From an uncultured Pontibacter sp. (GTDB lineage Bacteria; Bacteroidota; Bacteroidia; Cytophagales; Hymenobacteraceae), in contig NZ_CANLMZ010000013.1 of assembly GCF_947492645.1 (NCBI RefSeq), positions 10,195 to 74,194 of the forward strand: DNA of 64,000 nt, given 5' to 3'. Shown here one piece after another: positions 32,071 through 56,505 of the stretch. Position 1 is the stretch's first letter, and every line of letters begins with the position of its first letter. Below the pieces are notes generated by a model. The model saw only the letters and a list, made by a program, of their open reading frames with translations. It searched no databases and had not been told where the DNA came from. The translations under genes were made by a program, and so were the position numbers.

Positions 32071-32183
32071 AACTTCCTTATCTTTTTTAAAATATATTTA
32101 AAGCGCTATATTATACAGCGAAACTTTCATACTATAGTTGCTATAGAAAATTTATAAACTTCTCACTCTTACAATTTTTATTA

Positions 32184-33995: not shown

Positions 33996-34081
33996 GATGT
34001 TAGTAAGGTAACAATACTTCTATTATATGGGTCTTTAAGCGCTCATAGCTTCAGAACATTGAATAGAGTACAAGTATCTTA

Positions 34082-34687: not shown

Positions 34688-34767
34688 TAATATTATACTT
34701 TGTGTACTGTCAATAACTCTATTGCTATGTTCAGCAGTACTTCAATTAAAAGTATACGCAACTATCA

Positions 34768-35277: not shown

Positions 35278-35503
35278 AAACTAAAAGAATCAGAGGCTTT
35301 AGGAGTAGTTAAATTCTAATAAAAGCTGATCATTATTTATTAAAAGAACTCCTTACTAAACGTGCATGATTTTTTCATTATTATATTCTGATATTTATAT
35401 ATATTTGAAAATATAATAAGGGGAATTCTTGATAACCCACCTACCGTAATAATAGGTTCTGCTCAACTACTCTCTTATTTGTATATCCAAATCCAATTTT
35501 TAA

Positions 35504-36619
35504 ATGAAAACTATACAACTAATAAAAAGCCACATTGGTGGACGATCTGAGCAGCAAGACTCGAGCAATTCAGAGAGAGTACAAACAAAAATTGGCCGGC
35601 TACTTTTAATTGCCGATGGAATGGGTGGGCATAATGGAGGGAGTATAGCATCAAAAAAAGCTATTGAAGTTGTTTTAGATACTGTAAATAATTGTGAAGT
35701 CTCATTATCTGCATCAGATTGTTTAGTAAACAGTATTTGCAAGGCCAATGAAGCTATATATAATACTGCTCAAGAGGACCCAGCTTTAAAAGGTATGGGT
35801 ACAACCATAGTAGCTTTATTACTAACTGACGAATCTGCTATTCTTTGTCATGTAGGAGATAGCAGGATATATCATATAAGAGGTAATTCTATCCAGTTTA
35901 AGACTCAGGACCATTCTTGGGTAGGGGAGATGGTGAAAAATGGGCTTCTCAGCGAACAAGAAGCTCAACATCATGAAAAGTCAAATATTATAACTAGAGC
36001 TTTAGGCATAAGCTCGACTGTACAGGTTGACTCACATACAATAACAGACCTACAGGAAGAAGATATGTTTCTTCTATGCTCTGATGGAATAACTGGTGCT
36101 TTAGATGATGCTACGCTAGTTCAGGTACTCAATTCGAAAGAACATTTAGAGGATTGCTTAGACCACATTATTTCTGTTGTAGATAATGTAGGCCAATCTA
36201 AGGGCGGTGGACATGACAACATGACTATTGGTGTCTTGAAGATTAAGAAATTAGAGAAAAACCAAGCAAATCTTAAGACACGAATTATTCCAGAGCAGGA
36301 TGGTGGATCTTCACCTGAAAAGGCTGGCATTAACAAAAAGCTACTTGTAACACTCATTTTTTTAGCTGTTCTGTTAAGCTGTATCAGCTTCTACTTAGGG
36401 TACCAAAATGGAGCTCCTGAAGCCAGCCTGAATAATAATGAGCAGACTGATGAGAAGCGAAGTGAGTTAACTACGCCTGTACAAGATAAGGAAGATAATG
36501 ATCTGCCCACGGATAGAAAAGCGGTAGATAAAAATACCTCTCAACATGCCATTATACCTTCAAACGAAACACAAAAGACGACAGTTGAATCAAACCCAAC
36601 TGTAAATAATGCAGAGTAA
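35504..36619 (+). CDS. PP2C-family Ser/Thr protein phosphatase with C-terminal membrane anchor
   Basis: 371 aa with ADGMGGHNGGSIASKKA, GTTIVALL, HVGDSRIY, LCSDGITG and HDNMT. It has a hydrophobic helix LLVTLIFLAVLLSCISFYLGY and then a polar tail. Confidence 0.9.
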   Translation: MKTIQLIKSHIGGRSEQQDSSNSERVQTKIGRLLLIADGMGGHNGGSIASKKAIEVVLDTVNNCEVSLSASDCLVNSICKANEAIYNTAQEDPALKGMGTTIVALLLTDESAILCHVGDSRIYHIRGNSIQFKTQDHSWVGEMVKNGLLSEQEAQHHEKSNIITRALGISSTVQVDSHTITDLQEEDMFLLCSDGITGALDDATLVQVLNSKEHLEDCLDHIISVVDNVGQSKGGGHDNMTIGVLKIKKLEKNQANLKTRIIPEQDGGSSPEKAGINKKLLVTLIFLAVLLSCISFYLGYQNGAPEASLNNNEQTDEKRSELTTPVQDKEDNDLPTDRKAVDKNTSQHAIIPSNETQKTTVESNPTVNNAE

Positions 36620-36623: not shown

Positions 36624-38333
36624 ATGACAACAGACTTACTAATTCCTAATTATAACCTTCTGCGTGTAATAGGCGAAGGGGGCATGGCCACAGTGTACCT
36701 TGGCGAACACGCTCATCTGGGTAATAAGGTGGCTATCAAGGTGCTCAACTCCCACTACGCTCGGCACCAGCAGGTGCGAAGTCGCTTTTTGACGGAGGCC
36801 AAAGTGCTGGCCTCCTTTCAGCACCCGCACATTGTAGGCGTAAAAGACTTCTACGAAGAAGGCGATACGCTGGCTTTTGTCATGGATTATGTTGAAGGAC
36901 TTCCCCTTGATGAGTACCTCTACACTCACAATGCCCTGCGTGATCCGGCTAAAGCCATTGTTTTCTTTTCACAGATGCTGGATGCCTTCAGCTATGCCCA
37001 CCAAAAGGGGGTAGTGCACCGTGACATCAAGCCCGGCAATCTGATGGTAACACAGGACGGACAAGTGCGGGTGTTGGACTTTGGGATTGCTAAATTATTG
37101 GAAACGCAAGTAGGTGCGGCTAAGGCCACTGCCACCGGCACGATGCTAGGCACGCCGATGTACATGAGCCCGGAGCAGATCAACTTAAAGTCAGGCGAAA
37201 GCATTGACCACCGCAGTGACATCTACGCGTTAGGGGTGACGCTGCATCAGATTCTCTCAGGTCGTCCGCCCTACGATGCTGACACCCATTCAGGCTTTGA
37301 GATGCAGATGAAAATCATGACTGAGCCCCTGTCTCGCCTGGAACAAGTGCCCGAGTGGCTGCAGCAGGTTGTAGACAAGGCCACAGCTAAGATAAGAGAC
37401 GATCGTTTCCAGAGCTGCTCTGAATTCCTGCAAGCGCTTAGAAGAGAAACAGGCGCTAGCATAGTAGAGCAGCCAGTGTTCAAGCCTGTCTATAATGAAA
37501 CTCCTAGAGTGGAGGCTAAGACAGTTGTAAGTACGCCAGAGCAGCAGAAGACACATTTAACTGCTGTTCCTCAAGTAACACAAATACTTGAAAAGCCACA
37601 GACCACGCAGTTTATCGCCCCTGCCCAACCAACCAAAGCAGTAGAGCAGAAGGCGGGACTGGATCTAAATAAATTCGGTAAAGAGCCTGATAAAAAGAGT
37701 AACACTTTGTCTTGGGTCATAGCAGTTTTAGTTATAGTCATTGGTGGTATCATTTGGGGAGTTAGTGTAATGTCTGGTAGTTCATCTTATTCTGGTTCAG
37801 AGACTGTGATAAGTGATGAGACCTGGGTTGAAGAGACTATAATTGAAGATACAACAGCTATTGAAGTGGATGAAGTAAAAGTTGTTGAAGCTGAACCTTT
37901 TGTAGTTGGTAAATCAGTAGTTGAAAAAGCTTTCCTACAGTACTTACCTGACATTTCTGGAGGAAGAAACCTTTTGGAGTTAGAAGCTTACGAAGGGAAA
38001 AAATACAAAATTTTAGTTGGCGATTTAAATGGCGATGGCCTGCAGGATGGTATAGTTGATTACTCTCTTGAACCAACATTTGAAGATACTGGCGGAGGAA
38101 ATGCAATTGGCGCACTACCGGGGCTAGTAGCATTCATCAATACTGGTAATAAATTGACTATTGCTGATCATTCAGAAGAATTTAATTACATGTATAAAAT
38201 ATCGAAAATTAATAATGGGGTTATCTTTCTTGAAGGGTTCGAATATGCAGAGGATGACGCAAGGTGCTGTCCTTCAATTGAAGTAACTAAGAAGCTTGTA
38301 CTTCGAAATGATAAGTTAACATCATTAGATTAA
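36624..38333 (+). CDS. Hanks-type Ser/Thr protein kinase 1 (TM plus extracytoplasmic FG-GAP-like domain)
   Basis: GEGGMATVY, VAIKVL, HRDIKPGN, DFGIAK and MYMSPEQ, with TM helix WVIAVLVIVIGGIIWGV and a C-terminal domain containing VGDLNGDGLQDGIVD. The start is set to the ATG at 36624 (MTTDLLIPNY), as in the three paralogues. Confidence 0.9.
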   Translation: MTTDLLIPNYNLLRVIGEGGMATVYLGEHAHLGNKVAIKVLNSHYARHQQVRSRFLTEAKVLASFQHPHIVGVKDFYEEGDTLAFVMDYVEGLPLDEYLYTHNALRDPAKAIVFFSQMLDAFSYAHQKGVVHRDIKPGNLMVTQDGQVRVLDFGIAKLLETQVGAAKATATGTMLGTPMYMSPEQINLKSGESIDHRSDIYALGVTLHQILSGRPPYDADTHSGFEMQMKIMTEPLSRLEQVPEWLQQVVDKATAKIRDDRFQSCSEFLQALRRETGASIVEQPVFKPVYNETPRVEAKTVVSTPEQQKTHLTAVPQVTQILEKPQTTQFIAPAQPTKAVEQKAGLDLNKFGKEPDKKSNTLSWVIAVLVIVIGGIIWGVSVMSGSSSYSGSETVISDETWVEETIIEDTTAIEVDEVKVVEAEPFVVGKSVVEKAFLQYLPDISGGRNLLELEAYEGKKYKILVGDLNGDGLQDGIVDYSLEPTFEDTGGGNAIGALPGLVAFINTGNKLTIADHSEEFNYMYKISKINNGVIFLEGFEYAEDDARCCPSIEVTKKLVLRNDKLTSLD

Positions 38334-38382
38334 TCAATACATATAGCTCCTTTCTATAAATTATTTTAAGAAAAATAATTAC

Positions 38383-40035
38383 ATGACAACAGACTTACTG
38401 ATTCCTAACTATAACCTTCTTCGCGTGATAGGCGAAGGTGGCATGGCCACCGTGTATCTGGGCGAACATGCCAGGCTTGGTAACAAAGTAGCTATTAAAG
38501 TACTCAACTCCCACTACGCCCGCCACGAGCAGGTGCGCAGCCGCTTTTTGACCGAAGCGAAAGTGCTGGCTTCATTTCAACACCCGCACATTGTGGGGGT
38601 AAAAGACTTTTTTGAAGAAGGTGATGTGCTGGCCTTTGTGATGGATTATGTAGAAGGACTACCGCTGGATGAGTACCTCTACACCCACAACGCCTTGCGT
38701 GATCCAGCTAAAGCCATTGCCTTTTTTTCGCAGATACTCGATGCCTTCAGTTATGCGCACCAAAATGGAATAGTGCACCGCGACATCAAGCCTGGCAACC
38801 TGATGGTAACACAGGACGGACAAGTGCGCGTGTTAGACTTTGGCATCGCCAAGCTGCTGGAGACACCGGTAGGCGCGGCCAAGGCCACAGCTACCGGTAC
38901 CATGCTAGGTACACCCATGTACATGAGCCCGGAGCAGATCAATTTAAAGCCAGGCGAGAGCATCGACCACCGTAGTGACATCTATGCGCTGGGCGTAACG
39001 CTGCACCAGATTCTCTCCGGCCGTCCGCCTTATGATGCTGATACCCATTCGGGCTTTGAAATGCAGCTAAAGATTATGACTGAACCCCTGCCACGATTAG
39101 AACATGTGCCAAACTGGCTGCAGCAGGTGGTAGATAAAGCTACAGCTAAGAAAAGAGAAGATCGTTTCCAGAGCTGCTCTGAATTTCTGCAAGCACTGAA
39201 AAGAGAAATAGGTGCTAGCAAAGAAGAGCAGCCAGTGTTCAAGCCTGTCTACAACAAAGCTTCAAGAGTAGAAGCCAAGACAGTGGCAATTGCCCCAGAG
39301 CAGCAAAAAACACAGATTGCTTCAGTCCCACAAGCCACACAAATACTTGAAAAGCCACAGACCACGCAGTTTATCTCTCCGGCTGCGGAGACCAAAGTAG
39401 TAGAACAGAAGGCGGGTTTAGATATAAGTAAGTTAGGTAAAGAGCCGGAAGAAAAAAGTAAAGCAATTTTATGGATCGGTCTTGCCTTGTTGTTAACAGT
39501 CATCTGCGTTGTAATGTGGCGAGTTATGATGAATGATGAGGAGTTCACTATTCAAGATGAACCTTTTGTCGTATCAAAAACAGTTGTCGATGACTCTTTT
39601 GTACAATATCATCCAGATCCTAATTTGTACTCAAGTCATTTTAAAGAACTGCTGCCCAAAGGTTATGACATTGGTATTGGTGATATTAATAAAGACAGTT
39701 TAGAAGATGGAGTAATAGCATACAACTACAAACAATATGCTGGATATAATGACACAATTCCTTCGCGGTTATTTGGTGTCTTGGCTATGATTAATAACGG
39801 AAGTTATTTAGTAGAATATGATAATTCATCTGAACTTTTTGAAAACGGTAAATACATGTTTCTCTTAAAGAAGTTAGCAAAAGTTGAAAATGGAATAATT
39901 TTTTTAGAAGGAATTGAAGTTGATAATATGAGAGGTGATATAAGAACTGCAAAGCTTGAAGTTGTTTTACGCGATAACAAATTATTCCGCCAAAAATGGT
40001 CTACAAAAATTAGAGGTAATTGGAGAAATAGATAG
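38383..40035 (+). CDS. Hanks-type Ser/Thr protein kinase 2 (TM plus diverged extracytoplasmic domain)
   Basis: The kinase motifs are the same as in kinase 1. It has a TM helix LWIGLALLLTVICVVMW and a C-terminal domain with IGDINKDSLEDGVIA. Confidence 0.9.
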   Translation: MTTDLLIPNYNLLRVIGEGGMATVYLGEHARLGNKVAIKVLNSHYARHEQVRSRFLTEAKVLASFQHPHIVGVKDFFEEGDVLAFVMDYVEGLPLDEYLYTHNALRDPAKAIAFFSQILDAFSYAHQNGIVHRDIKPGNLMVTQDGQVRVLDFGIAKLLETPVGAAKATATGTMLGTPMYMSPEQINLKPGESIDHRSDIYALGVTLHQILSGRPPYDADTHSGFEMQLKIMTEPLPRLEHVPNWLQQVVDKATAKKREDRFQSCSEFLQALKREIGASKEEQPVFKPVYNKASRVEAKTVAIAPEQQKTQIASVPQATQILEKPQTTQFISPAAETKVVEQKAGLDISKLGKEPEEKSKAILWIGLALLLTVICVVMWRVMMNDEEFTIQDEPFVVSKTVVDDSFVQYHPDPNLYSSHFKELLPKGYDIGIGDINKDSLEDGVIAYNYKQYAGYNDTIPSRLFGVLAMINNGSYLVEYDNSSELFENGKYMFLLKKLAKVENGIIFLEGIEVDNMRGDIRTAKLEVVLRDNKLFRQKWSTKIRGNWRNR

Positions 40036-40159
40036 CTTTTGATTTTTTTTGATAAACATAACTTATTATATGTTAATGGTTATGCCTAATTAAAATTAAA
40101 GGTCTCAAAAAAAATATCAATTAAAATAATACCGAATCTTTTCGGTAATAAATAACTCT

Positions 40160-41611
40160 ATGACAACAGACTTACTGATTCCTAGCTATAATATTCTGCG
40201 CGTGATAGGTGAGGGGGGCATGGCAACCGTGTACCTGGGCGAGCACGCCAGGCTAGGCAACAAAGTAGCCATCAAAGTGCTTAACTCTCACTATGCCCGC
40301 CACGAGCAGGTGCGTGGCCGCTTTCTGACGGAAGCTAAAGTGCTGGCTTCATTTCTGCATCCGCACATTGTAGGGGTGAAAGACTTTTTTGAAGAAGGTG
40401 ATGTGCTGGCCTTTGTGATGGATTATGTAGAAGGACTACCGCTGGATGAGTACCTCTACACCCACAACGCCTTGCGTGATCCAGCTAAAGCCATTGCCTT
40501 TTTTTCGCAGATACTCGATGCCTTCAGTTATGCGCACCAAAATGGAATAGTGCACCGCGACATCAAGCCCGGCAACCTGATGGTAACACAGGACGGACAA
40601 GTGCGGGTATTGGACTTTGGGATTGCTAAACTTTTGGAAACACCGGTAGGCGCGGCCAAGGCCACAGCTACCGGTACCATGCTAGGCACACCCATGTACA
40701 TGAGCCCGGAGCAGATCAATTTAAAACCAGGAGAGAGCATCGACCACCGCAGCGACATCTACGCACTAGGGGTAACGTTGCACCAGATCCTTTCAGGTCG
40801 TCCGCCCTATGATGCTGATACCCACTCAGGCTTTGAGATGCAGATGAAGATCATGACTGAGCCCCTGCCTCGGTTAGAACAAGTGCCCGAGTGGTTGCAG
40901 CAGGTAGTAGACAAGGCCACAGCTAAGAAAAGAGAAGACCGCTTTCAGAACTGCTCGGAGTTTCTGCAGGCGCTCAAAATAGAAACTGGCAACTTTAATG
41001 TAACAGGCTCCAAGCAGGATGAGCAACCAGTGTTCAAGACTGTCTACAACGAAGCAGCAAAAGTAGAAGCCAAGACTGTGGTAAGTACGCCAAGGCAGCA
41101 GAAGACACAGATTGCTGCTGCGCCACAAGTCACGCAAATACTTGAAAAGCCTCAGACCACGCAGTTTATTCCTCCGGCACAGGCAACTAAAGTTGTTGAG
41201 TCAAAGCCAGATCAGCAAATTGAGGAAGAATCAAGTCCACTGTCAGAGAAGATATTACTAGGTGTACTTGCCTTATTTGGAGTAGCATGGCTTTTATTAC
41301 AATTTGTCGCAGATCTTAGAGCTGAATCCCTAAATGAAATCTATAATCTTTATGGAGGGTTACCAAATTATGTCCTAAATGTTTATTTATCAAATATATA
41401 TCCTTTTGATAGTCCAGCTGTTTACTATAGTACAGAAATTATATTCCTAACGGGTATAATATTCACGCTTGCTTATTCGGCAATTCCTTTTGTAAGTAAT
41501 GAACCTGATGAAAATAAGTATTGGGAGGCACTTAAACTTTTTGGTGCGCTACATTTTTTCGGCGGACCATTGATAAGTGGTGTTATTTTAATTTTAAAAA
41601 TTTTGATATAG
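40160..41611 (+). CDS. Hanks-type Ser/Thr protein kinase 3 (multi-pass membrane C-terminus)
   Basis: The kinase motifs are the same. The C-terminus is replaced by about 3-4 hydrophobic helices (ILLGVLALFGVAWLLLQF, IIFLTGIIFTLAYSAIPF, FGGPLISGVILILKILI). Confidence 0.9.
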   Translation: MTTDLLIPSYNILRVIGEGGMATVYLGEHARLGNKVAIKVLNSHYARHEQVRGRFLTEAKVLASFLHPHIVGVKDFFEEGDVLAFVMDYVEGLPLDEYLYTHNALRDPAKAIAFFSQILDAFSYAHQNGIVHRDIKPGNLMVTQDGQVRVLDFGIAKLLETPVGAAKATATGTMLGTPMYMSPEQINLKPGESIDHRSDIYALGVTLHQILSGRPPYDADTHSGFEMQMKIMTEPLPRLEQVPEWLQQVVDKATAKKREDRFQNCSEFLQALKIETGNFNVTGSKQDEQPVFKTVYNEAAKVEAKTVVSTPRQQKTQIAAAPQVTQILEKPQTTQFIPPAQATKVVESKPDQQIEEESSPLSEKILLGVLALFGVAWLLLQFVADLRAESLNEIYNLYGGLPNYVLNVYLSNIYPFDSPAVYYSTEIIFLTGIIFTLAYSAIPFVSNEPDENKYWEALKLFGALHFFGGPLISGVILILKILI

Positions 41612-41630
41612 ATTTTGATTGTAAACCTCT

Positions 41631-43355
41631 ATGACAACAGACTTACTAATTCCCAATTATAACATCCTTCGAACTATTGGTGAAGGTGGCATGGCCACCG
41701 TGTACTTAGGCGAGCACGCCCGGCTGGGCAACAAGGTAGCCATCAAAGTGCTTAACTCTCACTATGTCCGTCACGAGCAGGTACGTAGCCGCTTTCTAAC
41801 AGAAGCTAAAGTACTGGCTTCGTTTCAGCACTCGCACATTGTAGGCGTAAAAGACTTTTTTGAAGAAGGTGATGTGCTGGCTTTTGTCATGGATTATGTG
41901 GAAGGGCTTCCCTTAGACGAATACCTTTATACTCACAACGCCTTGCGTGACCCGTCTAAAGCCATTGCCTTTTTTTCGCAGATGCTCGACGCCTTCAGCT
42001 ACGCCCATCAGAAAGGAGTAGTGCACCGCGACATCAAGCCCGGCAACCTGATGGTAACACAAGACGGACAGGTTAGAGTATTGGACTTTGGGATTGCTAA
42101 ACTGCTAGAAACACCAGTAGGAGCAGCCAAGGCAACAGCTACAGGCACGATGCTAGGCACGCCGATGTATATGAGCCCAGAGCAGATCAACTTAAAGCCA
42201 GGCGAGAGCATCGATCACCGCAGCGATATTTATGCGCTGGGCGTGACGCTGCACCAGATCCTTTCAGGTCGTCCGCCCTATGATGCTGATACCCACTCAG
42301 GCTTTGAAATGCAGCTAAAGATCATGACTGAACCCCTGCCACGCCTAGAGCAGGTGCCCGAGTGGTTGCAGAAGGTGGTAGACAAAGCTACAGCCAAGAA
42401 AAGAGAAGATCGTTTTCAAAGCTGTAATGATTTTCTACAGGCACTCAAAAGAGAAACTCCATCTAGCAAAGTAGAGCAGCCAGTTTTTAAGCCTGTTTAT
42501 AATGAAACTCCTAGAGTGGAGGCTAAGACAGTGGTAAGTACGCCTGACCAACAGAAGACGCAAGTAGCTGCTGCAGCGCAGGCCACACAAATACTCGAAA
42601 AGCCACTAACTACTCAATTTTTCTCTCCCGCTGCCGCGACCAAAGCAGTAGAACAGAAGGCGGGACTGGATCTAAATAAATTCGGTAGAGAGCCTAAGAA
42701 AAAAAGTAATTCCTTATACTGGATCATAGCAATTTTAGTGGTAGTTATTGGTGGTTTTATTTGGGGATCTATTGCAATGTCTGGTAACTCACCTTATTCT
42801 GATTCAGAGACTATAATAAGTGATGAGACCTTGGTTGAAGAGACCATAATTGAAGATACAACAGCTATCGAAGTGGATACTACTGCCGTACCAGAGGAGG
42901 TAACTGCTGTAGAAGAGCCCTTTGTTGTAACTAAATCAGTTGTTGGAGCTGCTTTTGAGGATGTGATATTTTCCATTTCTGGTGGGTTTCAAGTTCACCA
43001 ACTGAGAAGAGTTCATGGTAATGGAAAGAGGTACAAAGCAATTGTAGGGGACATAAATGGCGATGGCCTGCAAGATGGTATAGTTGATTGTTCACTTATG
43101 ACTTTTTCTTCTACCCAAGAAGGAGTGGATGGTTCTTCAATTCTTGTTGCCTTTATTAATACAGGCAAGGCATTAGTCATGGTCGATTATTCAAGAGAAG
43201 AAATGAGTCAAGGCTTTGTTTTGCAGAATATTAAAAACGGAGTGATTAACCTTAAAGGAGAAATATACATAGCAGCAAATGAGTCACCATCTAAAACTAT
43301 AATAGTCAACAGACAAGTTATACTAGATAATAACAAACTCACAATTGTTGAATAG
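41631..43355 (+). CDS. Hanks-type Ser/Thr protein kinase 4 (TM plus FG-GAP-like domain related to kinase 1)
   Basis: The kinase motifs are the same. It has TM helix WIIAILVVVIGGFIWGS, and its C-terminal domain shares SETIISDETLVEETIIEDTTAIEVD and VGDINGDGLQDGIVD with kinase 1. Confidence 0.9.
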   Translation: MTTDLLIPNYNILRTIGEGGMATVYLGEHARLGNKVAIKVLNSHYVRHEQVRSRFLTEAKVLASFQHSHIVGVKDFFEEGDVLAFVMDYVEGLPLDEYLYTHNALRDPSKAIAFFSQMLDAFSYAHQKGVVHRDIKPGNLMVTQDGQVRVLDFGIAKLLETPVGAAKATATGTMLGTPMYMSPEQINLKPGESIDHRSDIYALGVTLHQILSGRPPYDADTHSGFEMQLKIMTEPLPRLEQVPEWLQKVVDKATAKKREDRFQSCNDFLQALKRETPSSKVEQPVFKPVYNETPRVEAKTVVSTPDQQKTQVAAAAQATQILEKPLTTQFFSPAAATKAVEQKAGLDLNKFGREPKKKSNSLYWIIAILVVVIGGFIWGSIAMSGNSPYSDSETIISDETLVEETIIEDTTAIEVDTTAVPEEVTAVEEPFVVTKSVVGAAFEDVIFSISGGFQVHQLRRVHGNGKRYKAIVGDINGDGLQDGIVDCSLMTFSSTQEGVDGSSILVAFINTGKALVMVDYSREEMSQGFVLQNIKNGVINLKGEIYIAANESPSKTIIVNRQVILDNNKLTIVE

Positions 43356-43430: not shown

Positions 43431-46400
43431 ATGAAAAAATATATTATAGGTCGCTTAGATGAGAGCGATATAGCCATAAACAACCCAACAGTATCAAGAA
43501 CTCATGCTGTTCTGATTTTATATCCAGATTCGACTTTTGAAATCCAAGATCAAAACTCTACTAATGGTGTAATGATCAATGGTAAAAAGATTGGCTCTTC
43601 TAAAGTAAATTTTGCTGATGAGATTAAGCTAGGCTCTCATAAAGTTGACTTGAACCAACTGTTACAGCTGTGTAATAAAAAAGAAGCTGAAAGAGCTGAA
43701 AGACTCCGTCAAGCAGAGCTACAAGTAGAAGCTAAAAAAAACCAAGACTTAGAGGCTGAGCTAAAGCAACGGGCTGAAGAAGCTGCTGCAGCGGAGAAGA
43801 AAAAAATAGAAATCGATGAACGAATAAAAGCTATTGCGCAAAAGCTACATGACGGAGAAAGTCTAACAGTACTGGCAGATGCGCAATTTTATAGTAGCTA
43901 TAAAAAAGAAGTAGATGCCTACGTTAATATTCTATATACCCAGGCTCAAAAAGCGGCTGCCATACTTCATCAGCAACAACAAGAAGAGCAAGCCAAGCAG
44001 TTTGAGATTGAAAAAAGAAAAAGAGAAGAAGATGAATTGTTGCTGTTTTTGAAAAAGCAGAAACAACAGCATGAAGTTGATCTATATTCAGCTCATTTAG
44101 ATAATGTGCTAGGTGCTGAACCAAGCTCAGCAGTATCAGATGAGTTTGATCTATATAATACGAAGCGAACTCTGCCCGCCTATCTAAAGGTCGGAGATTA
44201 TAAACTGCACGATTCGGTTTTCCCTTTTTGTATTCAATTTAATGATACAAAGAGAGGTATAACTTTATCTGCAGATGGCTCAAAATCAAATGATCTTTTA
44301 GAGAATATTATTTTCAGGCTTATAGCTTCTAATACTCCTAAAAAGACTCTTGTTAAAATAGTAGATACTGAGAAAAAGGGGTTGGCATTCTCAAATTTAG
44401 TGGCGCTTAGTCCAAAGGTTATTGGGAACGATGTATTGGATACGACTCAGGAAATTGATCAATTTTTCGATGAATCAATAAAGAAATCTGGTGAACTGGT
44501 ACTAAGTATATTAAAGAACCAGTACACCAACATAGCTACTTTTAACAAAGAGAATCCTGATATGGCATTGCCGGTAACTCTTTTGGCAATTTCTAACTTC
44601 CCATCAGGTTTCGATCGTGAGAGAACTAAGAAACTGCTTGAGCTGCTTAAAATTGGCAATAGGGTAGGGCTATATGCCTTCATTAGTATAAATAAACCTG
44701 CTCTGGAAGATTGGAAGACAAAGCACCAGGATCTGCAACCACTTGTAGACGAGTTATTCCAAAACTTCTTAACGATAGAGCAAAATACTGTTTCAGAATA
44801 TTCAACTGATCTATATCCTTCTGCAAACTATACTGTAAGCTATAACACATTACCACAAATACAGCATTTAATAAACAACATTAATGAAGAGGTAAACAAA
44901 GTAGTTACGCTTAAGGTAGATCTTAATAAGCGCTTGGGCGACTACTGGCAGGAAGACTCTTCTTATGGTGTGAAAATACCTGTTGGACAAACAGGAATGA
45001 ATGTACAACATTTCGAACTTGGTGGTGAAAGTAATGTTCATCATGCGCTTATAGGTGGTGCAACAGGTTTTGGTAAATCTGTGCTCTTACACAACATAAT
45101 TGTAAATGGAGCGCATCTCTATTCTCCAGACAATCTACAATTTATTTTACTTGACTATAAAGAGGGCACAGAATTCAAGCTATACTTAGACTTGCCACAT
45201 GCTAAGATTTTATCTATTGGTAGTGAGCGAGAATATGGTCTGAGTGTTTTCGAATACCTGGTAGAGGAAATTAAGAATAGGGGTGAAAAGTTTAGAGAGG
45301 CAGGAGTTGCTAACATTGGCGATTATCGGAAGGCTACTGGCGAAAGTATGCCACGGTTTTTAGTTGTGATAGATGAATTTCAGGTTTTGCTTTCAGGAAA
45401 GGACAATGTTAGTAACCAATCAAGTAGCCTGTTAGAAGATTTATCAAAGAGAGGTAGGTCATTTGGCATTAATCTTCTCCTATCATCTCAGACTTTAGCT
45501 GATGTGGAAGTTAGTACTTCTACAAAAAGCAACATAGGCTTAAGAATTGCGCTCAAATTAAACGAAAGCGATTGTGATAGAATTTTACATTACGAGAACA
45601 CTTTGCCATCTACCTTTAGTAGAGCAGGCCAAGCGGTTTATAATGATAGGAATGGTTTAAAAGTAGGTAATACAGAGTTTCAAGTTGCTTACTTATCTAA
45701 TGATGAGTTAAAAGAGAAGGTTACCAGAATTGCGGATGAGTACGCTAAAGTAGGTAGTTCTGCAGTAGAGAAGTTTGTTTATGATGGTACCATCAATGCA
45801 ACTGTTAACGATAACCTTGCTCTATCTGAAGCTATTGGAAATGATGCATTTGTACCGAATGATGTTATTTCAGATATATACATAGGTGAACCATCTTACC
45901 TCTCGAAGCAAAGTGTAAAAGTGAGGATAAAGAGAGAGCCACAGTCAAATGTTTTAGTCTTAGGACAGGATAGTGCTTCTGTAGTTTCTATTTTTTACAA
46001 TTCCTTCTATCAGCTAATAAAGCAGAGCTCTCCTGAGAGTGAGTTTTATCTATTCGATTTGTTTAATATAGATTCAGGCTTTAAGGGGCAGCTAGACGGA
46101 CTTAAGGATTTAGGCGATGTAAAGTTATTTAGCAGAAGCAGAAACATCGAGGAAGTTGTAGAGCGCGTTTACGAAGAATTGCAAAAGCGCATAAGTGATG
46201 ATGACGAAGGTAGTAAGAGAATTTGTATTGGTATTACAAATGCTCAATCAGCCAGAGAGCTCCGAAAAGCGGACTGGGATGTACCGCAGGTAACACAGCA
46301 ACTAATTAAGTTAATGAAAGATGGGCCAGATTTCGGAATACACATCTTTATGCATTACTACTCTTATGCGTCTTTCAGAGAAATTTTCGATACTAATGTT

Positions 46401-46559
46401 ATCAATGAGTTTGAAAACATCATTGCTTTAAAAGGTGATGATTCTACTGAAGTCTTTGACTTCTCTGCTAAGCCTGTTACTCAGGAAAGAATTGGCCAAA
46501 TAAAGTACCCACACGGGAAGTACAAAATTGAAGGTTTCAGAATTTACAATAAAATATAA
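43431..46559 (+). CDS. FHA domain + coiled coil + FtsK/SpoIIIE-family P-loop ATPase (EssC/EccC-like multi-module layout, no TM helix seen)
   Basis: 1042 aa. The FHA domain is at aa 1-75 (IGRLDESDIAINNPTVSRTHAVL...DQNSTNGVMINGKKI), followed by an E/K/A/Q-rich coiled coil at aa 80-215. Canonical Walker A IGGATGFGKS (nt 45054-45080) and Walker B RFLVVIDEF (nt 45357-45380) sit in FtsK context (HHALIGGATGFGKSVLLHNII...ILLDYKEG). Flanking modules have degenerate P-loops (LSADGSKSNDLL, VLVLGQDSASVV). Confidence 0.85.
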   Translation: MKKYIIGRLDESDIAINNPTVSRTHAVLILYPDSTFEIQDQNSTNGVMINGKKIGSSKVNFADEIKLGSHKVDLNQLLQLCNKKEAERAERLRQAELQVEAKKNQDLEAELKQRAEEAAAAEKKKIEIDERIKAIAQKLHDGESLTVLADAQFYSSYKKEVDAYVNILYTQAQKAAAILHQQQQEEQAKQFEIEKRKREEDELLLFLKKQKQQHEVDLYSAHLDNVLGAEPSSAVSDEFDLYNTKRTLPAYLKVGDYKLHDSVFPFCIQFNDTKRGITLSADGSKSNDLLENIIFRLIASNTPKKTLVKIVDTEKKGLAFSNLVALSPKVIGNDVLDTTQEIDQFFDESIKKSGELVLSILKNQYTNIATFNKENPDMALPVTLLAISNFPSGFDRERTKKLLELLKIGNRVGLYAFISINKPALEDWKTKHQDLQPLVDELFQNFLTIEQNTVSEYSTDLYPSANYTVSYNTLPQIQHLINNINEEVNKVVTLKVDLNKRLGDYWQEDSSYGVKIPVGQTGMNVQHFELGGESNVHHALIGGATGFGKSVLLHNIIVNGAHLYSPDNLQFILLDYKEGTEFKLYLDLPHAKILSIGSEREYGLSVFEYLVEEIKNRGEKFREAGVANIGDYRKATGESMPRFLVVIDEFQVLLSGKDNVSNQSSSLLEDLSKRGRSFGINLLLSSQTLADVEVSTSTKSNIGLRIALKLNESDCDRILHYENTLPSTFSRAGQAVYNDRNGLKVGNTEFQVAYLSNDELKEKVTRIADEYAKVGSSAVEKFVYDGTINATVNDNLALSEAIGNDAFVPNDVISDIYIGEPSYLSKQSVKVRIKREPQSNVLVLGQDSASVVSIFYNSFYQLIKQSSPESEFYLFDLFNIDSGFKGQLDGLKDLGDVKLFSRSRNIEEVVERVYEELQKRISDDDEGSKRICIGITNAQSARELRKADWDVPQVTQQLIKLMKDGPDFGIHIFMHYYSYASFREIFDTNVINEFENIIALKGDDSTEVFDFSAKPVTQERIGQIKYPHGKYKIEGFRIYNKI

Positions 46560-46581
46560 CCTTTTACTATATATATATCAT

Positions 46582-46869
46582 ATGTCACATATTTCCTTAT
46601 CACCTGCCGAGCTTGAGTCTATCATAACTAAGATCAGTAGTTTTAAACAAAACTTCGAAACTGATATTAAGAAAATCAAATCTTATTCTGAAGGCTTAAG
46701 TCAATCATGGAAAGATCCACAGTACCCTATCTTCAAGGGTGAGATCAATAGTTTCTACAACGTTTGTCACAATCAAATTGAGACCCTACATAGGTTGGAG
46801 TCAAACTTGAGATCTTTAAAGAAACAAAGTGAAGAAGCAATTAAAATTGCTAAGCAGTTTGGACGCTAG
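46582..46869 (+). CDS. WXG100/ESAT-6-like small helical protein (W-K-D variant)
   Basis: 95 aa from the ATG at 46582 (the ORF-track start 46528 overlaps the ATPase). It begins ISLSPAELESIITKISSF and has W43 in SQSWKDPQY at the centre of two predicted helices. This matches WXG100 proteins in length, in Trp position and in placement right after an FtsK/SpoIIIE ATPase. Confidence 0.55.
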   Translation: MSHISLSPAELESIITKISSFKQNFETDIKKIKSYSEGLSQSWKDPQYPIFKGEINSFYNVCHNQIETLHRLESNLRSLKKQSEEAIKIAKQFGR

Positions 46870-46923
46870 AATAAACATTACTTGTGAGTCTTTGGAATAA
46901 GAAGTAATACAAAGTACATAAAT

Positions 46924-46958
46924 AAAATAGCCAGGTATAAATTAGACCTGGCTATTTT
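46924..46958 (+). terminator. rho-independent terminator closing the kinase/ATPase block
   Basis: 13-bp perfect stem aaaatagccaggt / acctggctatttt with a 9-nt loop. The T-run is built into the 3' arm and continues as gttt. Confidence 0.8.
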
Positions 46959-47030
46959 GTTTACACGGTTTATATTAAACCTATGCATTTCTATTTATCC
47001 TTTCTTATAGTCCTTTAGGTAATATTAAAA

Positions 47031-47693
47031 ATGACAAAGAGGTTATACTTGATTATAATAGCTTCACTATTAATCTTTTTATCTATAAGTTATGGCTTAC
47101 ATTCTTTAGGGTATGTAAACATTCACTACACTAAAAATGATAACTTGTTTTTCGAAGGTAAAATAGCGCTTGTGCCCTTTGGAGAAATTAGAAACTCTGA
47201 AGTTCAGTATGTGAAGGCCCAGATTGAAAAGTTTTATGGATTTGAAGTTGATGTTTTAAATAGAGCTAAAATGCCAGCTAATGCTTTTTACAAGCCACGT
47301 AGCAGGTACAAGGCAAGTAAGGTATTAGATCATCTTATAGCCACTAAATCTGTAGAATATGATAAGGTTATTGCATTATCTAATGACGACATTTCTGCTA
47401 AAGTTAAAGGGTATAAAGACTGGGGAGTAATAGGACTCGCTTATCTGGGGAATTCAGCTTGCATTGTATCTACTTACAGGCTAGGAAAACAAAAAGTAAG
47501 TAGTGATAGATTTAAAAGTAGATTGGCAAAAGCTTCGTTGCATGAGCTAGGCCATACGTTGGGTTTGCCACACTGCGATAGAACTGATTACTGTTTTATG
47601 AATGATGCAAAAGGTAAAGTTTCAACGATTGATAGAGCAAATCTAACTTTATGTGATTACTGCCAAAAACAGATTCTGATCTATCAACTTTAA
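47031..47693 (+). CDS. archaemetzincin-type zinc metallopeptidase with N-terminal membrane anchor
   Basis: 220 aa. HELGHTLGLPHCDRTDYCFM-x17-CDYC fits the archaemetzincin signature HExxHxxGxxHC...CxM-x17-CxxC. The N-terminal hydrophobic helix is LYLIIIASLLIFLSISYGL. Confidence 0.8.
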   Translation: MTKRLYLIIIASLLIFLSISYGLHSLGYVNIHYTKNDNLFFEGKIALVPFGEIRNSEVQYVKAQIEKFYGFEVDVLNRAKMPANAFYKPRSRYKASKVLDHLIATKSVEYDKVIALSNDDISAKVKGYKDWGVIGLAYLGNSACIVSTYRLGKQKVSSDRFKSRLAKASLHELGHTLGLPHCDRTDYCFMNDAKGKVSTIDRANLTLCDYCQKQILIYQL

Positions 47694-47923
47694 GGTTTAA
47701 TTCTGCCAGCTATTATTTGCTCTATATTTCCACATTTGTTTTTTTGCTGCTTAAGCATATCTAATTGATGTTACTATGAAATTTATATTATAAGCATATA
47801 ATATAGGGTATTATATATGCGTTATTCCTAGCATTAGATTCAGCACACTTTATGTTACCGTAAGAGTCAGCTTTGTTTGTTTAGCTACTCGAAAATCAGA
47901 AGTATAAAATTAGGTTATACAGA

Positions 47924-48439
47924 TTGAAGAAGCTTATACTGTTCCTCGCACTATTACTAATAACATCATATTTAATGAAAGATTTTCTTCTGGAAAAGAG
48001 ATTATCTAGTGATGCTGTCATAGATAAACTTAGTATTGATAAATCTGAGAGAGAATTAAGTGTTTATTCTAAGGGCAAGCTACTTAAGACTTATTCAATA
48101 TCATTGGGTAAAGAGCCTATTGGAGATAAGCAGTTTGAAGGTGATAATAAAACTCCAGAAGGCTTATACTTTATAAACGGAAAGAACTCTCAAAGTAGTT
48201 ACTACAAAAATCTAGGCATTTCCTATCCTAACTCTGAGGATAGAAATGAAGCTAAGAAACTTAGTAAGTCAGCAGGCGGAGACATCAAGATTCATGGGTT
48301 GCCTAACAAATTGCCATTTCTTGGCCGATTGCACCGCATTACAGATTGGACTGCAGGATGTGTAGCAGTTACTAATGAAGAAATGGATGAGCTATTTAAT
48401 ACTGTAAAGATGGGTACACCTATTGAAATCAAGCCATAA
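47924..48439 (+). CDS. L,D-transpeptidase (YkuD/ErfK family)
   Basis: 171 aa with a TTG start and a signal/anchor helix. The catalytic block is IKIHGLPN...TAGCVAVTNEEMDELF (H-G...G-C). Confidence 0.8.
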   Translation: MKKLILFLALLLITSYLMKDFLLEKRLSSDAVIDKLSIDKSERELSVYSKGKLLKTYSISLGKEPIGDKQFEGDNKTPEGLYFINGKNSQSSYYKNLGISYPNSEDRNEAKKLSKSAGGDIKIHGLPNKLPFLGRLHRITDWTAGCVAVTNEEMDELFNTVKMGTPIEIKP

Positions 48440-48455
48440 TCAAAGCACATAAGGC

Positions 48456-49472
48456 ATGTACAGGTTTGTTGCGACTCTTATTGTAATAATGTTATTGAAT
48501 ACACAGAAGGTGTTTGCTAATAGTAACTATTCTGGTCTAAACAAAACTTTCAAGAAAATAGAGAATCTGTATTCTAGAAAAAAATATGAAAATGTTCTTA
48601 ATGAAATCAGACTATTAGAAAATCAAAGGTTTGGTAAAAATGGGAAATTAAAGTTCTCTTTAAAAGATGATGTAAGGTATTATCATTTGAAATTATCATC
48701 TAGGGTCCAACTGAAAAGATATGGATCTCTAAAAGAAACTGTTGCTCTTTATGAAAGGCTTCTTGCTTTAGATAGTACTAAGTACTACTCAGCAATGGAT
48801 CATTATGATACATTTAATGATTACCTAAAACAAGCATCGGAGAATTTGTTCAAAAAGAACCAAATCGCCTTTACCAGAAGATTAGTAAATATTTTGGCTT
48901 CACAAGGAGATACTACTTGGGTTTATAAAAAAGCTTATCCAGACAGGCAATCACTACAGTTTCTAGATAAAGAAAAGCTACATAAGTTCTTGAAAAACTA
49001 TGACTATACTAAAATAGATAGTATTGCTTTAGCCACTACAAAGCAAACAAGTATAGAAAACCAAGCTTGGGCTTTAACAAAAGACTTTACTTATGATTTT
49101 CAAAAAGTACGGGCCATATACATCTGGATAGTCAATAACATAGATTATGATCATACCTATAGAATTTACGATGAAGAACGTACTTTTAAGAGTAATACCG
49201 GCGTCTGTAGTGGGTTCAGCTACTTATTCAAAGAGATGTGTAATAAGGTCGGCCTAAAAGCTAAAAGTATTATTGGTGTTGCTGATAATGGGGTAGAAAT
49301 AGGAGGCCATGCTTGGAATTCAGTTGAAATTGAAGGCTACCCATTTTTAATTGAGAGTACCTGGGCATCTTGTGTTAAATATAAAACTGAGTACTACTAT
49401 CTGATCAGAGAAAAGGATTTAGCGAAAACTCACAAAGCGGATCCGTTAAAGAATAATTTACTGGAATATTAG
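48456..49472 (+). CDS. secreted transglutaminase-like protein, copy 2
   Basis: 338 aa, collinear with 31060..32070 over its full length (KKIENLYSRKKYENVLNEIRLLENQRFGKNGKLKFSLKDD...; TGVCSGFSYLFKEMC...GGHAWNSVE...IESTWASCVK). Confidence 0.7.
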   Translation: MYRFVATLIVIMLLNTQKVFANSNYSGLNKTFKKIENLYSRKKYENVLNEIRLLENQRFGKNGKLKFSLKDDVRYYHLKLSSRVQLKRYGSLKETVALYERLLALDSTKYYSAMDHYDTFNDYLKQASENLFKKNQIAFTRRLVNILASQGDTTWVYKKAYPDRQSLQFLDKEKLHKFLKNYDYTKIDSIALATTKQTSIENQAWALTKDFTYDFQKVRAIYIWIVNNIDYDHTYRIYDEERTFKSNTGVCSGFSYLFKEMCNKVGLKAKSIIGVADNGVEIGGHAWNSVEIEGYPFLIESTWASCVKYKTEYYYLIREKDLAKTHKADPLKNNLLEY

Positions 49473-49665
49473 TAAATTTTTATTCTATCCTGTGCTAAGT
49501 CTCTAATGAGTATGGGGCTTTCTACAGCTTCTAATCTTATCTAATGTATATTAATATCAAAATAGCTAATATCGGTACAAGAAGTTAATAAAATAGTGTA
49601 ACAGGTTGATATTGAGTTGCTAGGCTAATGTTTTAATTTAATTGTAATTTATTCGAATATATTCT

Positions 49666-52698: not shown

Positions 52699-52811
52699 AA
52701 TAGTTACAATAAGAATCTAAATATATAAATATAGATGCTATTATAAAACTGAGGTATGCTACTTGGGATGAAATAATTGAATTGGCAAATTTTATGACAC
52801 CTAACCAGTAT

Positions 52812-53837: not shown

Positions 53838-53859
53838 ATATTTTTTAATATATTTGAGA

Positions 53860-53895
53860 AATGCAGAAAGGCTGCACTTTAGTATAATACTTTTG
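53860..53895 (+). promoter_or_regulatory. 19-bp element AATGCAGAAAGGCTGCACT + TAnnTTTG box (copy 1, WYL/ATPase divergent region)
   Basis: The element at 53860-53878 contains the palindrome TGCAG-N5-CTGCA. TACTTTTG at 53888-53895 starts 10 nt after the element. The element sequence and spacing are identical at 56442-56477. Confidence 0.65.
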
Positions 53896-53899
53896 TATC

Positions 53900-55423: not shown

Positions 55424-55428
55424 CCGAT

Positions 55429-56436: not shown

Positions 56437-56441
56437 ATTCC

Positions 56442-56477: not shown

Positions 56478-56505
56478 CATTATAATTACAGAATAACACA
56501 TACCC

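What the first reader, a model, noticed from the sequence alone, without database searches (positions are those of the whole stretch)
43431..46559. Soluble FHA-coiled-coil-FtsK-like protein with one canonical and two degenerate P-loop modules
The N-terminal FHA domain keeps the residues normally used for phospho-Thr binding (G-R...S-R-x-H...N-G context). A long charged coiled coil follows it. After the coiled coil come what look like three FtsK-like modules, and only the middle one retains canonical motifs (GGATGFGKS and VVIDEF). The first reads LSADGSKS...LLAISNF and the last VLVLGQDSAS...ICIGITNAQ. EccC and EssC also consist of three tandem FtsK-like domains with unequal activity, and the last domain recognises substrates. 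The lack of any hydrophobic helix is unusual for that family. It implies either recruitment to the membrane through phosphorylated kinases or a non-secretory role.
Basis: partly seen in the sequence, partly recalled or inferred. Interest (0 to 1): 0.7.

Follow-up and report, generated by a model that had tools for sequence, protein, structure and literature searches.

The report
Kinase-linked soluble secretion-type ATPase
This gene encodes a membrane-less relative of the motor protein of type VII secretion systems, fused to a phosphothreonine-reading domain and flanked by four membrane kinases, a phosphatase and a small ESAT-6-like protein; the protein family was already noted in the literature, but this kinase-coupled form is rare and its function is untested.

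Summary
ORF 43431-46559 (1042 aa) has four parts:
- an N-terminal FHA domain that keeps the phosphothreonine-binding residues;
- a charged helical linker of about 150 residues;
- three tandem, mutually homologous FtsK-like domains;
- no hydrophobic helix anywhere.

Only the middle FtsK-like domain has Walker A and B motifs. A confident AlphaFold model (pLDDT 91) matches the three-ATPase cytoplasmic part of EccC best.

The family is not new. It is the [quoted passage not shown]. It is soluble and paired with a solo WXG100 protein of the H. pylori HP0062 type. Zhang et al. 2012, Uchiyama et al. 2016 and Bell et al. 2024 noted it by computation. I found no experimental study of it.

The 95-aa downstream ORF is such a WXG100 protein, with W-x-D in place of W-x-G.

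What is unusual here is the FHA fusion, found in 2 of 272 family members sampled. The gene is in line with a membrane PP2C phosphatase and four membrane Ser/Thr kinases. The kinases have near-identical catalytic domains and divergent outer domains. One metagenomic locus has the same parts.

Best reading: a type VII-like motor that threonine phosphorylation recruits or switches on. I rate it a new variant of a known kind, of moderate interest.

The parts
35504..36619 (+). PP2C-type Ser/Thr phosphatase with one C-terminal transmembrane segment
   Evidence: Pfam PP2C_2 E 1.3e-14. Transmembrane-like segment at residue 280, KD 2.65. 34% identical, with the same topology, to the PP2C of locus L086.
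36624..38333 (+). Membrane Ser/Thr kinase K1. The mechanical ORF starts at 36609; the paralogues start at MTTDL, which is 36624.
   Evidence: Pkinase E 7.5e-54. VAIK, HRD, DFG and SPE motifs are present, the linker is 12% Thr with TQIL and TQFI, and the transmembrane segment is at about residue 359.
38383..40035 (+). Membrane Ser/Thr kinase K2
   Evidence: Pkinase E 3e-54. 93-95% identical to K1, K3 and K4 in the catalytic domain, 30-38% beyond the membrane segment.
40160..41611 (+). Membrane Ser/Thr kinase K3, with a hydrophobic C-terminal region of its own that aligns poorly with those of K1, K2 and K4
   Evidence: Pkinase E 1e-53. Alignment.
41631..43355 (+). Membrane Ser/Thr kinase K4
   Evidence: Pkinase E 1.3e-53. 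Its outer domain is 55% identical to that of K1.
43431..46559 (+). The finding: soluble FHA, helical linker and three-domain EssC-like ATPase (1042 aa)
43440..43634 (+). FHA domain (residues 4-68). Phosphothreonine-binding residues G7, R8, S22, R23, H25, N45 and G46.
   Evidence: Pfam FHA E 1.1e-14. Alignments to solved FHA domains.
43650..44126 (+). Charged, predicted helical linker (residues 74-232)
   Evidence: Helices 74-140 and 150-227 in a low-confidence model. The 28-residue windows between residues 82 and 137 are 46-54% charged, and heptad periodicity is not significant.
44178..44930 (+). M1: degenerate FtsK-like domain (residues about 250-500) with no Walker A or B
   Evidence: Alpha/beta fold in the confident model. 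hhalign to M3 96.4% and to M2 75%. Column counts. No significant PDB sequence match of its own.
44943..45725 (+). M2: canonical FtsK/SpoIIIE ATPase domain (residues 505-765). Walker A GGATGFGKS is at 45054-45080 and Walker B VVIDEF at 45363-45380.
   Evidence: Pfam E 3.5e-25. Best matches are EccC D1 (61 bits) and D1 of an EssC-like protein (121 bits). Motifs are invariant or nearly so in 114 relatives.
45798..46556 (+). M3: degenerate FtsK-like domain (residues 790-1042)
   Evidence: hhalign to M2 98.4%, E 7e-15. Best match in an EssC-like protein is D2. No GK[ST] or DE.
46582..46869 (+). 95-aa WXG100-superfamily protein of the HP0062 type, with W-K-D in place of W-x-G
   Evidence: Pfam WXG100 E 4.8e-5 (24 bits, below the 27.3 cut-off). 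A profile of 15 relatives hits HP0062 (3fx7) at 2e-14, EsxB at 6.5e-12 and S. aureus EsxA at 1e-6. A relative lies within 8 kb of the ATPase in 78 of 120 family loci.

Best explanation
**Shown**
- The protein belongs to the HP0066-type branch of EssC/EccC-like ATPases. These have three tandem FtsK-like domains, with only the middle one able to hydrolyse ATP.
- Members of this size class have no membrane anchor.
- The gene is paired with a solo WXG100 protein of the HP0062 type, here ORF 46582-46869.
- In this locus the ATPase carries an N-terminal FHA domain with a complete set of phosphothreonine-binding residues.
- It lies on the same strand, behind a membrane PP2C phosphatase and four membrane Ser/Thr kinases. 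The kinases share a catalytic domain and a Thr-rich linker with conserved TQIL and TQF[IF] motifs. Their outer domains differ.

**Inferred**
- One or more kinases respond to an envelope or external cue and autophosphorylate the linker between the kinase domain and the membrane.
- The FHA domain docks on those phosphothreonines. This brings the soluble ATPase to the membrane and raises its local concentration, so that M2 can form an active ring, presumably a hexamer as in other FtsK-type ATPases.
- The motor then acts on the WXG100-like protein, most likely to export it or hand it over.
- The PP2C phosphatase removes the mark and switches the system off.
- In this reading, phospho-dependent docking stands in for the transmembrane helices of EssC/EccC. 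The four kinases let several signals feed one motor.
For: **Family membership**
- 33-42% identity over about 800 residues to many relatives.
- More than 150 cluster representatives match the whole three-domain profile at E < 1e-181.

**Architecture**
-.

**WXG100 partner**
-.

**Prior descriptions of this family**
- PMC3482391, Table 1 footnote 6.
- PMC4978471.
- PMC11090510.

**FHA domain**
- Residues and alignments.

**Kinases and phosphatase**
- All four kinases have VAIK, HRD, DFG and SPE motifs.
- They are 92-95% identical in the catalytic domain while K1, K2 and K4 are about 83% identical in DNA. This fits selection to keep the protein sequence.

**Independent recurrence**
- Locus L086 has FHA-FHA-ATPase (40% identical), three WXG-like ORFs, a membrane PP2C (34% identical) and a membrane kinase whose linker carries TQFV and TQFN.
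- Locus L149 has a separate FHA gene directly upstream of the ATPase.

**Precedent**
- Type VII variants of Gram-positive bacteria combine membrane kinases, PPM phosphatases and ATPase-borne FHA domains with intact phosphothreonine motifs (PMC11217815).
Against: - No experiment exists for any member of this branch, so the output (export, or something inside the cell) is unknown.
- The window has no recognisable channel or other type VII membrane component. It also has no evident route across an outer membrane.
- The FHA domain lacks the usual first two strands. I could not model it with confidence.
- In EssC of Firmicutes the FHA domains bind a pseudokinase without phosphorylation (as cited in PMC11217815), so binding here need not depend on phosphate.
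- The window's WXG-like protein has Ala where relatives have the conserved C-terminal Tyr.
- Kinases lie near only 5 of 120 family loci, so most of the family works without them.
- The locus sits beside defence genes, which fits an immune role as well as a secretory one.
Confidence: 0.5

Rival explanations
1. The module is an intracellular immune or stress device, not a secretion system. The kinases sense envelope damage or phage attack. The phospho-activated ATPase, together with the WXG100-like protein, acts inside the cell, for example by remodelling or extracting a target or by triggering growth arrest.
For: - Relatives are embedded in TerY-P/CoCoNuT defence operons. Bell et al. argue that a mechanism different from EssC is likely because the proteins lack membrane helices. 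The Caballeronia plasmid locus shows this context.
- The window's cluster lies in a low-GC stretch.
- It is next to a NERD-TPR protein similar to PDC-M16A, a WYL regulator, an AAA_15 ATPase similar to NsnB/AriA, and a type I restriction-modification system.
- No membrane channel partner was found.
Against: - WXG100 proteins are known only as type VII secretion substrates or cofactors.
- Other family loci carry toxin and immunity pairs typical of exported polymorphic toxins: HNH with SUKH and Gln_amidase with a small ORF.
- Planctomycete-type members do have membrane segments.
- PADLOC matches cover only the generic P-loop domain.
Confidence: 0.25
2. The FHA domain binds the kinases or another partner without phosphorylation, as EssC FHA domains bind the EssB pseudokinase. 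The kinases and phosphatase regulate something else.
For: - EssC FHA domains interact with the EssB pseudokinase independently of phosphate (cited in PMC11217815).
- The FHA domain here is N-terminally shortened.
Against: - Unlike EssC, this FHA domain keeps every canonical phosphothreonine-contacting residue.
- The kinases have intact catalytic motifs.
- A PP2C is co-conserved in the one other fused locus.
Confidence: 0.15
3. The kinase array is next to the ATPase and WXG100 pair by chance. That pair works on its own as a minimal, mobile type VII-like export unit.
For: - Most family loci lack kinases.
- The pair is described as a mobile stand-alone unit.
- The kinase genes have a higher GC content (0.42-0.45) than the ATPase and its downstream genes (0.32-0.37).
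Against: - An FHA domain has no evident use without a Ser/Thr kinase.
- The same set of parts recurs in L086 in a different gene order.
- All genes are on the same strand with short gaps.
Confidence: 0.07
4. It is a DNA translocase of the FtsK, SpoIIIE or conjugation-coupling type.
For: M2 matches FtsK motor domains and the TcpA coupling protein.
Against: - The best matches are type VII ATPases, not FtsK.
- Pfam finds no FtsK gamma domain (PF09397) in this protein. True FtsK hits carry it.
- There are no membrane helices.
- The conserved partner is a WXG100 protein.
Confidence: 0.03

Closest known systems
HP0066-type 'distinct YueA/EssC-like ATPase' with a solo WXG100 protein (HP0062 type). 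Sources: Zhang et al. 2012, Biol Direct, Table 1 footnote 6; Uchiyama et al. 2016; Bell et al. 2024 (extensions of CoCoNuT Type III-A systems).
   Same: - Three tandem FtsK-like domains with only the middle one active.
- No transmembrane helices.
- An N-terminal helical region.
- An adjacent small WXG100-like protein with W-x-D.
- Occurrence in Bacteroidota, Planctomycetota, Verrucomicrobiota and Campylobacterota, and on plasmids.
   Different: - An FHA domain is fused in front of the helical region. Only 2 of 272 sampled members have this.
- The kinases are membrane receptors present in four copies, not the cytoplasmic zinc-ribbon kinase of the TerY-P triad.
- The window has no vWA/TerY gene, no McrBC/CoCoNuT core and no obvious toxin and immunity pair.
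EssC (T7SSb) and EccC (T7SSa), the membrane ATPases of type VII secretion
   Same: - FtsK/SpoIIIE-type tandem ATPase domains of unequal activity.
- They are the best sequence and structure matches.
- EssC also has N-terminal FHA domains.
- The gene lies next to a WXG100 gene.
   Different: - No transmembrane helices.
- Three rather than four NTPase-like domains.
- Far below the NCBIfam cut-offs (111 against 509 bits; 104 against 778).
- No EssA, EssB or EsaA, no EccB, EccD or EccE, and no YukD partner nearby.
- The FHA domain keeps the phosphothreonine residues that, according to Garrett et al. 2024, EssC has lost.
T7SSd and T7SSe variants of Gram-positive bacteria (Garrett et al. 2024, PMC11217815)
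   Same: - An ATPase with FHA domains whose phosphothreonine motif is conserved.
- A membrane Ser/Thr kinase and (in T7SSe) a PPM phosphatase.
- WXG100 protein(s).
- Regulation by phosphorylation has been proposed for them too.
   Different: - Those ATPases are membrane-bound and have four NTPase domains.
- They occur in Actinomycetota and Bacillota.
- They have further membrane components (TsdH/TsdI, TseK).
Threonine-phosphorylation pathway of type VI secretion (PpkA kinase, PppA phosphatase, Fha). This is cited from my own knowledge and from its mention in PMC11217815.
   Same: The logic is the same: a membrane kinase with an outer sensor domain, a PP2C phosphatase that resets the mark, and an FHA reader that promotes assembly of a secretion machine.
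   Different: - The machine is unrelated.
- There the FHA is a separate scaffold protein, not part of the motor.
- There is one kinase rather than four.

Membership tests
HP0066-type three-domain soluble EssC-like ATPase | Three tandem FtsK-like domains, with Walker A and B only in the middle one | tested here: met
   Model and Foldseek, hhalign, column counts in 114 members.
HP0066-type three-domain soluble EssC-like ATPase | Full-length homology to family members | tested here: met
   33-42% identity over residues about 240-1040, with tblastn E down to 5e-165. Profile search result.
HP0066-type three-domain soluble EssC-like ATPase | No transmembrane helices | tested here: met
   Highest KD19 is 1.27. 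64 of 67 short members are alike in this.
HP0066-type three-domain soluble EssC-like ATPase | Adjacent solo WXG100 protein of the HP0062 type | tested here: met
   ORF 46582-46869. The family profile hits HP0062 at 2e-14. Such a protein is present in 78 of 120 loci.
HP0066-type three-domain soluble EssC-like ATPase | N-terminal coiled coil (as Bell et al. 2024 describe) | tested here: inconclusive
   Long helices appear only in a low-confidence model. The heptad test was not significant.
EssC/EccC (canonical type VII ATPase) | N-terminal transmembrane helices that anchor the ATPase | tested here: not met
EssC/EccC (canonical type VII ATPase) | Score above the NCBIfam cut-offs of the equivalog or equivalog-domain models (TIGR03924, TIGR03928, TIGR03925) | tested here: not met
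   111 against 509 bits, 104 against 778 bits and 79 against 347 bits.
EssC/EccC (canonical type VII ATPase) | Four NTPase-like domains (DUF/D0 plus D1 to D3) | tested here: not met
   Only three domains lie between residue 250 and the C-terminus.
EssC/EccC (canonical type VII ATPase) | Other core type VII genes nearby (EssA/EssB/EsaA/EsaB or EccB/EccD/EccE/MycP) | tested here: not met
   Pfam scans of the neighbouring ORFs found none.
FHA domain | Pfam FHA match above the gathering score | tested here: met
   55 bits against 20.7.
FHA domain | Conserved phosphothreonine-contacting residues (Arg, Ser, His, Asn) | tested here: met
   R8, S22, H25 and N45 align with solved FHA domains.
FHA domain | Complete beta-sandwich fold, and binding of phosphothreonine | not testable with these tools
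   The N-terminal strands are absent. The only model of this part has pLDDT 21-29. Binding needs an experiment.
WXG100 superfamily (the 95-aa ORF) | Pfam WXG100 match above the gathering score | tested here: inconclusive
   The window's protein scores 24 bits against 27.3. Even so, 12 of 15 relatives match at E up to 0.01, the best at 1.9e-12. The family profile hits EsxA and EsxB structures.
WXG100 superfamily (the 95-aa ORF) | Central W-x-G motif | tested here: not met
   The motif is W-K-D-x-x-Y-x-x-F. Asp is invariant in the subfamily, as in HP0062.
TerY-P triad | TerY-like vWA protein together with a PP2C and a Ser/Thr kinase | tested here: not met
   PP2C and kinases are present, but Pfam scans of the main ORFs between about 16 and 56 kb found no vWA gene.

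The most novel reading that the evidence does not exclude
A soluble type VII-like motor in a diderm bacterium (probably Bacteroidota) is brought to the membrane only when its FHA domain reads phosphothreonines on receptor kinases. Phospho-docking would then replace the transmembrane anchor of EssC/EccC. A bank of four kinases with different outer domains would let several external cues gate one motor that handles a WXG100 protein. If true, this would be the first regulatory and mechanistic handle on the uncharacterised HP0066/HP0062 systems of Gram-negative bacteria.
Probability: 0.3. Interest if true: 0.7.

Novelty: new variant of a known kind. Interest (0 to 1): 0.45.

Why it matters
The HP0066/HP0062-type pair (a soluble three-domain EssC-like ATPase with a WXG100 protein) is widespread. 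It occurs in Planctomycetota, Verrucomicrobiota, Bacteroidota and Campylobacterota, including H. pylori, and on plasmids.

It has been noted only in passing in comparative-genomics papers. None of the papers I read reports an experiment on what it does, or on how a motor without a membrane anchor could secrete anything.

This locus gives a concrete hypothesis that can be tested. An FHA reader fused to the motor, membrane kinases with conserved TQ motifs, and a resetting phosphatase together suggest regulated recruitment to the membrane.

The locus also extends to Gram-negative lineages the link between type VII-like ATPases and Ser/Thr phosphorylation. That link was recently proposed for Gram-positive variants.

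If the module instead acts inside the cell as part of a defence island, it would show a new use for WXG100 proteins.

Tried and rejected
**Steps that led nowhere or needed repeating**
- The first structure job used a 6-sequence alignment and gave pLDDT 46.6, which is unusable. I repeated it with 114 sequences.
- The first representative search failed because the profile exceeded 1,200 positions. I repeated it with a trimmed alignment.
- The first homology search listed only 22 hits, which suggested a very rare protein. That was an effect of the word prefilter. The profile search showed a large family.
- A search with residues 1-500 alone returned nothing.
- A profile of M1 alone has no significant PDB sequence match. 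Its FtsK-like nature rests on the model and on hhalign.
- The promoter and terminator scan gave counts equal to chance.
- Look-ups of P0085 and of the window's own protein found no record, so the source organism is not established.
- The literature search on MADS was uninformative.

**Readings considered and rejected**
- PADLOC matches to SspH, mad8 and HerA cover only the P-loop domain and do not place the locus in those systems.
- TerY-P/CoCoNuT membership is rejected, because the window has no vWA and no McrBC-like genes.
- The downstream M54-like peptidase, YkuD and transglutaminase-like genes are not part of the system. None recurs in the first 85 related loci fetched.
- Simple FtsK or DNA-translocase identity is rejected, because there is no gamma domain and no membrane part.


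Full report
**1. The observation.** The ORF lies exactly where stated, at 43431..46559 on the + strand, and encodes 1042 aa.
- Pfam finds an FHA domain at residues 4-68 (E 1.1e-14) and a single FtsK_SpoIIIE stretch at 505-718 (E 3.5e-25).
G7-R8, S22-R23-x-H25 and N45-G46 align with the same positions of solved FHA domains: Slr1951, Rv1747 FHA and GarA/OdhI.
- The domain begins at residue 4. An in-frame stop lies seven codons upstream. So it lacks the roughly 25 residues (the first two strands) that precede this point in the solved domains.
- No hydrophobic segment exists. The highest 19-residue Kyte-Doolittle mean is 1.27, against 2.5-2.75 in each neighbouring kinase and in the phosphatase.

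**2. Three modules.**
- A first AlphaFold run on six sequences was useless, with pLDDT 46.6.
- With a 114-sequence alignment, the model of residues 236-1042 reached pLDDT 91.4 and pTM 0.83. It shows three alpha/beta domains.
- Foldseek ranks the three-ATPase cytoplasmic domain of Thermomonospora curvata EccC first (4nh0, E 3e-34, 918 aligned columns). Next come the D2-D3 structures of EssC and EccC, and then FtsK and TcpA.
- Profile-profile comparison of the three blocks shows they are homologous to each other: M3 to M2 98.4% (E 7e-15), M1 to M3 96.4%, M1 to M2 75%.
- In 114 relatives, the M2 residues G543, G546, G548, K549 and E649 are invariant and D648 is present in 113. M1 and M3 never show GK[ST] or DE. 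The degeneracy is therefore a family trait, not decay in this one gene.
- By sequence, M2 resembles D1 of EccC/EssC most (61 against 37 bits; 121 against 40 bits). M3 resembles D2 most. M1 has no significant match of its own.
- Canonical EccC/EssC are now described as having four NTPase-like domains (PMC11217815).
- I therefore lean towards M1-M2-M3 corresponding to D0-D1-D2. This is not settled. Bell et al. call the active domain the D2 homologue.

**3. The linker.** Residues 74-232 are predicted as two long helices, but only in the low-confidence model.
- Between residues 82 and 137, each 28-residue window is 46-54% charged and has few core hydrophobic residues.
- My heptad test was not significant.
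- 'Coiled coil' is possible, but a single charged helix is equally possible.

**4. The neighbours.** Upstream, on the same strand with short gaps, lie a PP2C phosphatase with one membrane segment and four Ser/Thr kinases.
- All four kinases keep the VAIK, HRD, DFG and SPE motifs.
- Their catalytic domains are 92-95% identical in protein. K1, K2 and K4 are about 83% identical in DNA over the first 1 kb, which fits selection to keep the protein.
- Beyond the membrane segment, identity falls to 18-55%.
- The linker between the kinase domain and the membrane is rich in Thr (7-12%). In all four it holds two conserved motifs, TQIL and TQF[IF].
- Downstream, the 95-aa ORF 46582-46869 scores just below the Pfam WXG100 cut-off.
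- It clusters with about 90-aa proteins next to related ATPases.
- A profile of 15 of these hits H. pylori HP0062 (3fx7, E 2e-14), then EsxB (6.5e-12) and S. aureus EsxA (1e-6).
- The motif is W-x-D-x-x-Y-x-x-F. I read this as the WXG motif with Asp in place of Gly.

**5. The family.** The first homology search listed only 22 hits, because of the word prefilter.
- A profile search found 383 proteins at E up to 1e-10, with relatives of 35-42% identity over the whole three-domain region.
- The exhaustive search of 1.84 billion cluster representatives listed 150 proteins that match the whole profile at E < 1e-181.
- Species genomes with members include Muribaculaceae, Chitinophagaceae, many Planctomycetota and Verrucomicrobiota, Campylobacter and some Clostridia.
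- Of 272 members, the forms of about 1,300 aa mostly have a membrane-like segment. In contrast, 64 of 67 forms of 950 aa or less have none. Solubility is thus normal for the branch nearest the window's protein.
- A WXG-like ORF lies within 8 kb in 78 of 120 loci.
- Other contexts are of two kinds:
  - toxin and immunity pairs, namely Gln_amidase with a small ORF and HNH with SUKH on a Helicobacter plasmid;
  - a defence operon on a Caballeronia plasmid, in the order VWA, WXG100, FtsK-like, CARF, VWA, PP2C, kinase, AAA.

**6. What is already known.**
- Zhang et al. [quoted passage not shown] - Uchiyama et al. 2016 name HP0062 and HP0066 as this pair in H. pylori. They note its link with TerY-P kinase and phosphatase clusters (PMC4978471).
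- Bell et al. 2024 describe soluble EssC homologues in extended CoCoNuT operons. These have three ATPase domains with only the central one active, an N-terminal coiled coil and two WXG100 genes. The authors say the mechanism must differ from that of EssC (PMC11090510).
- Garrett et al. 2024 show that type VII variants of Gram-positive bacteria often carry membrane kinases, PPM phosphatases and FHA domains with intact phosphothreonine motifs (PMC11217815).
- I found no experimental work on the soluble branch.

**7. What is particular here.**
- The FHA fusion is rare. Only the window's protein and P0093 have it among 272 members.
- One further locus has a separate FHA gene directly upstream of the ATPase (L149).
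- P0093's contig (L086) carries FHA-FHA-ATPase, three WXG-like ORFs, a 331-aa protein, a membrane PP2C (34% identical to the window's) and a membrane kinase.
- That kinase's linker has TQFV and TQFN, which echoes the window's TQF[IF].
- The window has no vWA or McrBC genes, so it is not a TerY-P or CoCoNuT locus.

**8. Mechanism.**
- Shown: the domain content, the family, the partner genes, and the recurrence of the parts in one other locus.
- Inferred, in sequence:
  - the kinases autophosphorylate the Thr-rich linker;
  - the FHA domain docks there;
  - the soluble ATPase is concentrated at the membrane and M2 becomes active in a ring;
  - the WXG-like protein is the client;
  - PP2C resets the system.
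- I put this at about 0.5.
- The main rival is an intracellular defence role (0.25). It is supported by the defence-island setting and by the missing channel.
- Lesser rivals are phospho-independent FHA binding, chance adjacency, and a DNA translocase.

**9. Verdict.** The protein family is already on record. This is a rare, kinase-coupled variant of it. Interest is moderate, at 0.45.

Noticed in passing
window 36624-43355: Four tandem membrane Ser/Thr kinase paralogues. Their catalytic domains are 92-95% identical in protein, while K1, K2 and K4 are about 83% identical in DNA. Their outer regions are divergent: K1 and K4 are related, K2 is more distant, and K3 has a different hydrophobic C-terminus.
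   Followed up: partly
window 31060-32070 and 48456-49472: Two paralogous transglutaminase-like proteins (50% identical over 300 aa) lie one on each side of the kinase and ATPase cluster.
   Followed up: partly
window 23321-24250: A short FtsZ-like protein of 309 aa. It scores 191 bits on TIGR00065, below the 295 cut-off, so it is probably not the cell-division FtsZ. It sits just before the low-GC stretch.
   Followed up: no
window 24300-24821 and 29315-29776: Two paralogous proteins with no Pfam match (28% identical, E 4e-21). One lies next to a histone-deacetylase-like gene (24842-25861).
   Followed up: no
window 49666-63851: A run of defence-type genes: a NERD-TPR protein of 1010 aa (similar to PDC-M16A), a WYL regulator, an AAA_15 ATPase similar to NsnB/AriA with a 335-aa partner, and three ORFs that by length and order look like type I restriction-modification genes (hsdM, hsdS, hsdR; not scanned here) with an unannotated 413-aa ORF between hsdS and hsdR.
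   Followed up: partly
window 26000-36000 and 44000-56000: GC content drops to 0.32-0.38 here, against 0.44-0.49 in the flanks. The kinase genes between these stretches are at 0.42-0.45. This suggests a mosaic, horizontally acquired region.
   Followed up: no
window 32184-33995: A DUF2779 protein of 603 aa (Pfam E 4e-24) within the low-GC stretch. Its function is unknown.
   Followed up: no
L087 169-6476: In a close relative's locus, the ATPase (40% identical) is flanked by two MORN-repeat proteins. Several family members carry MORN repeats fused at the N-terminus. N-terminal adaptor domains in this family therefore vary: none, MORN, TPR, AAA, thioredoxin, FHA or a membrane segment.
   Followed up: partly
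L083 5127-7736 and L085 1229-3281: Some Firmicutes-type relatives sit next to E2, JAB and E1 (ThiF) genes, or next to Hsp70, GrpE and DnaJ genes. Uchiyama et al. also list a DnaK homologue in the H. pylori WXG100 cluster.
   Followed up: no
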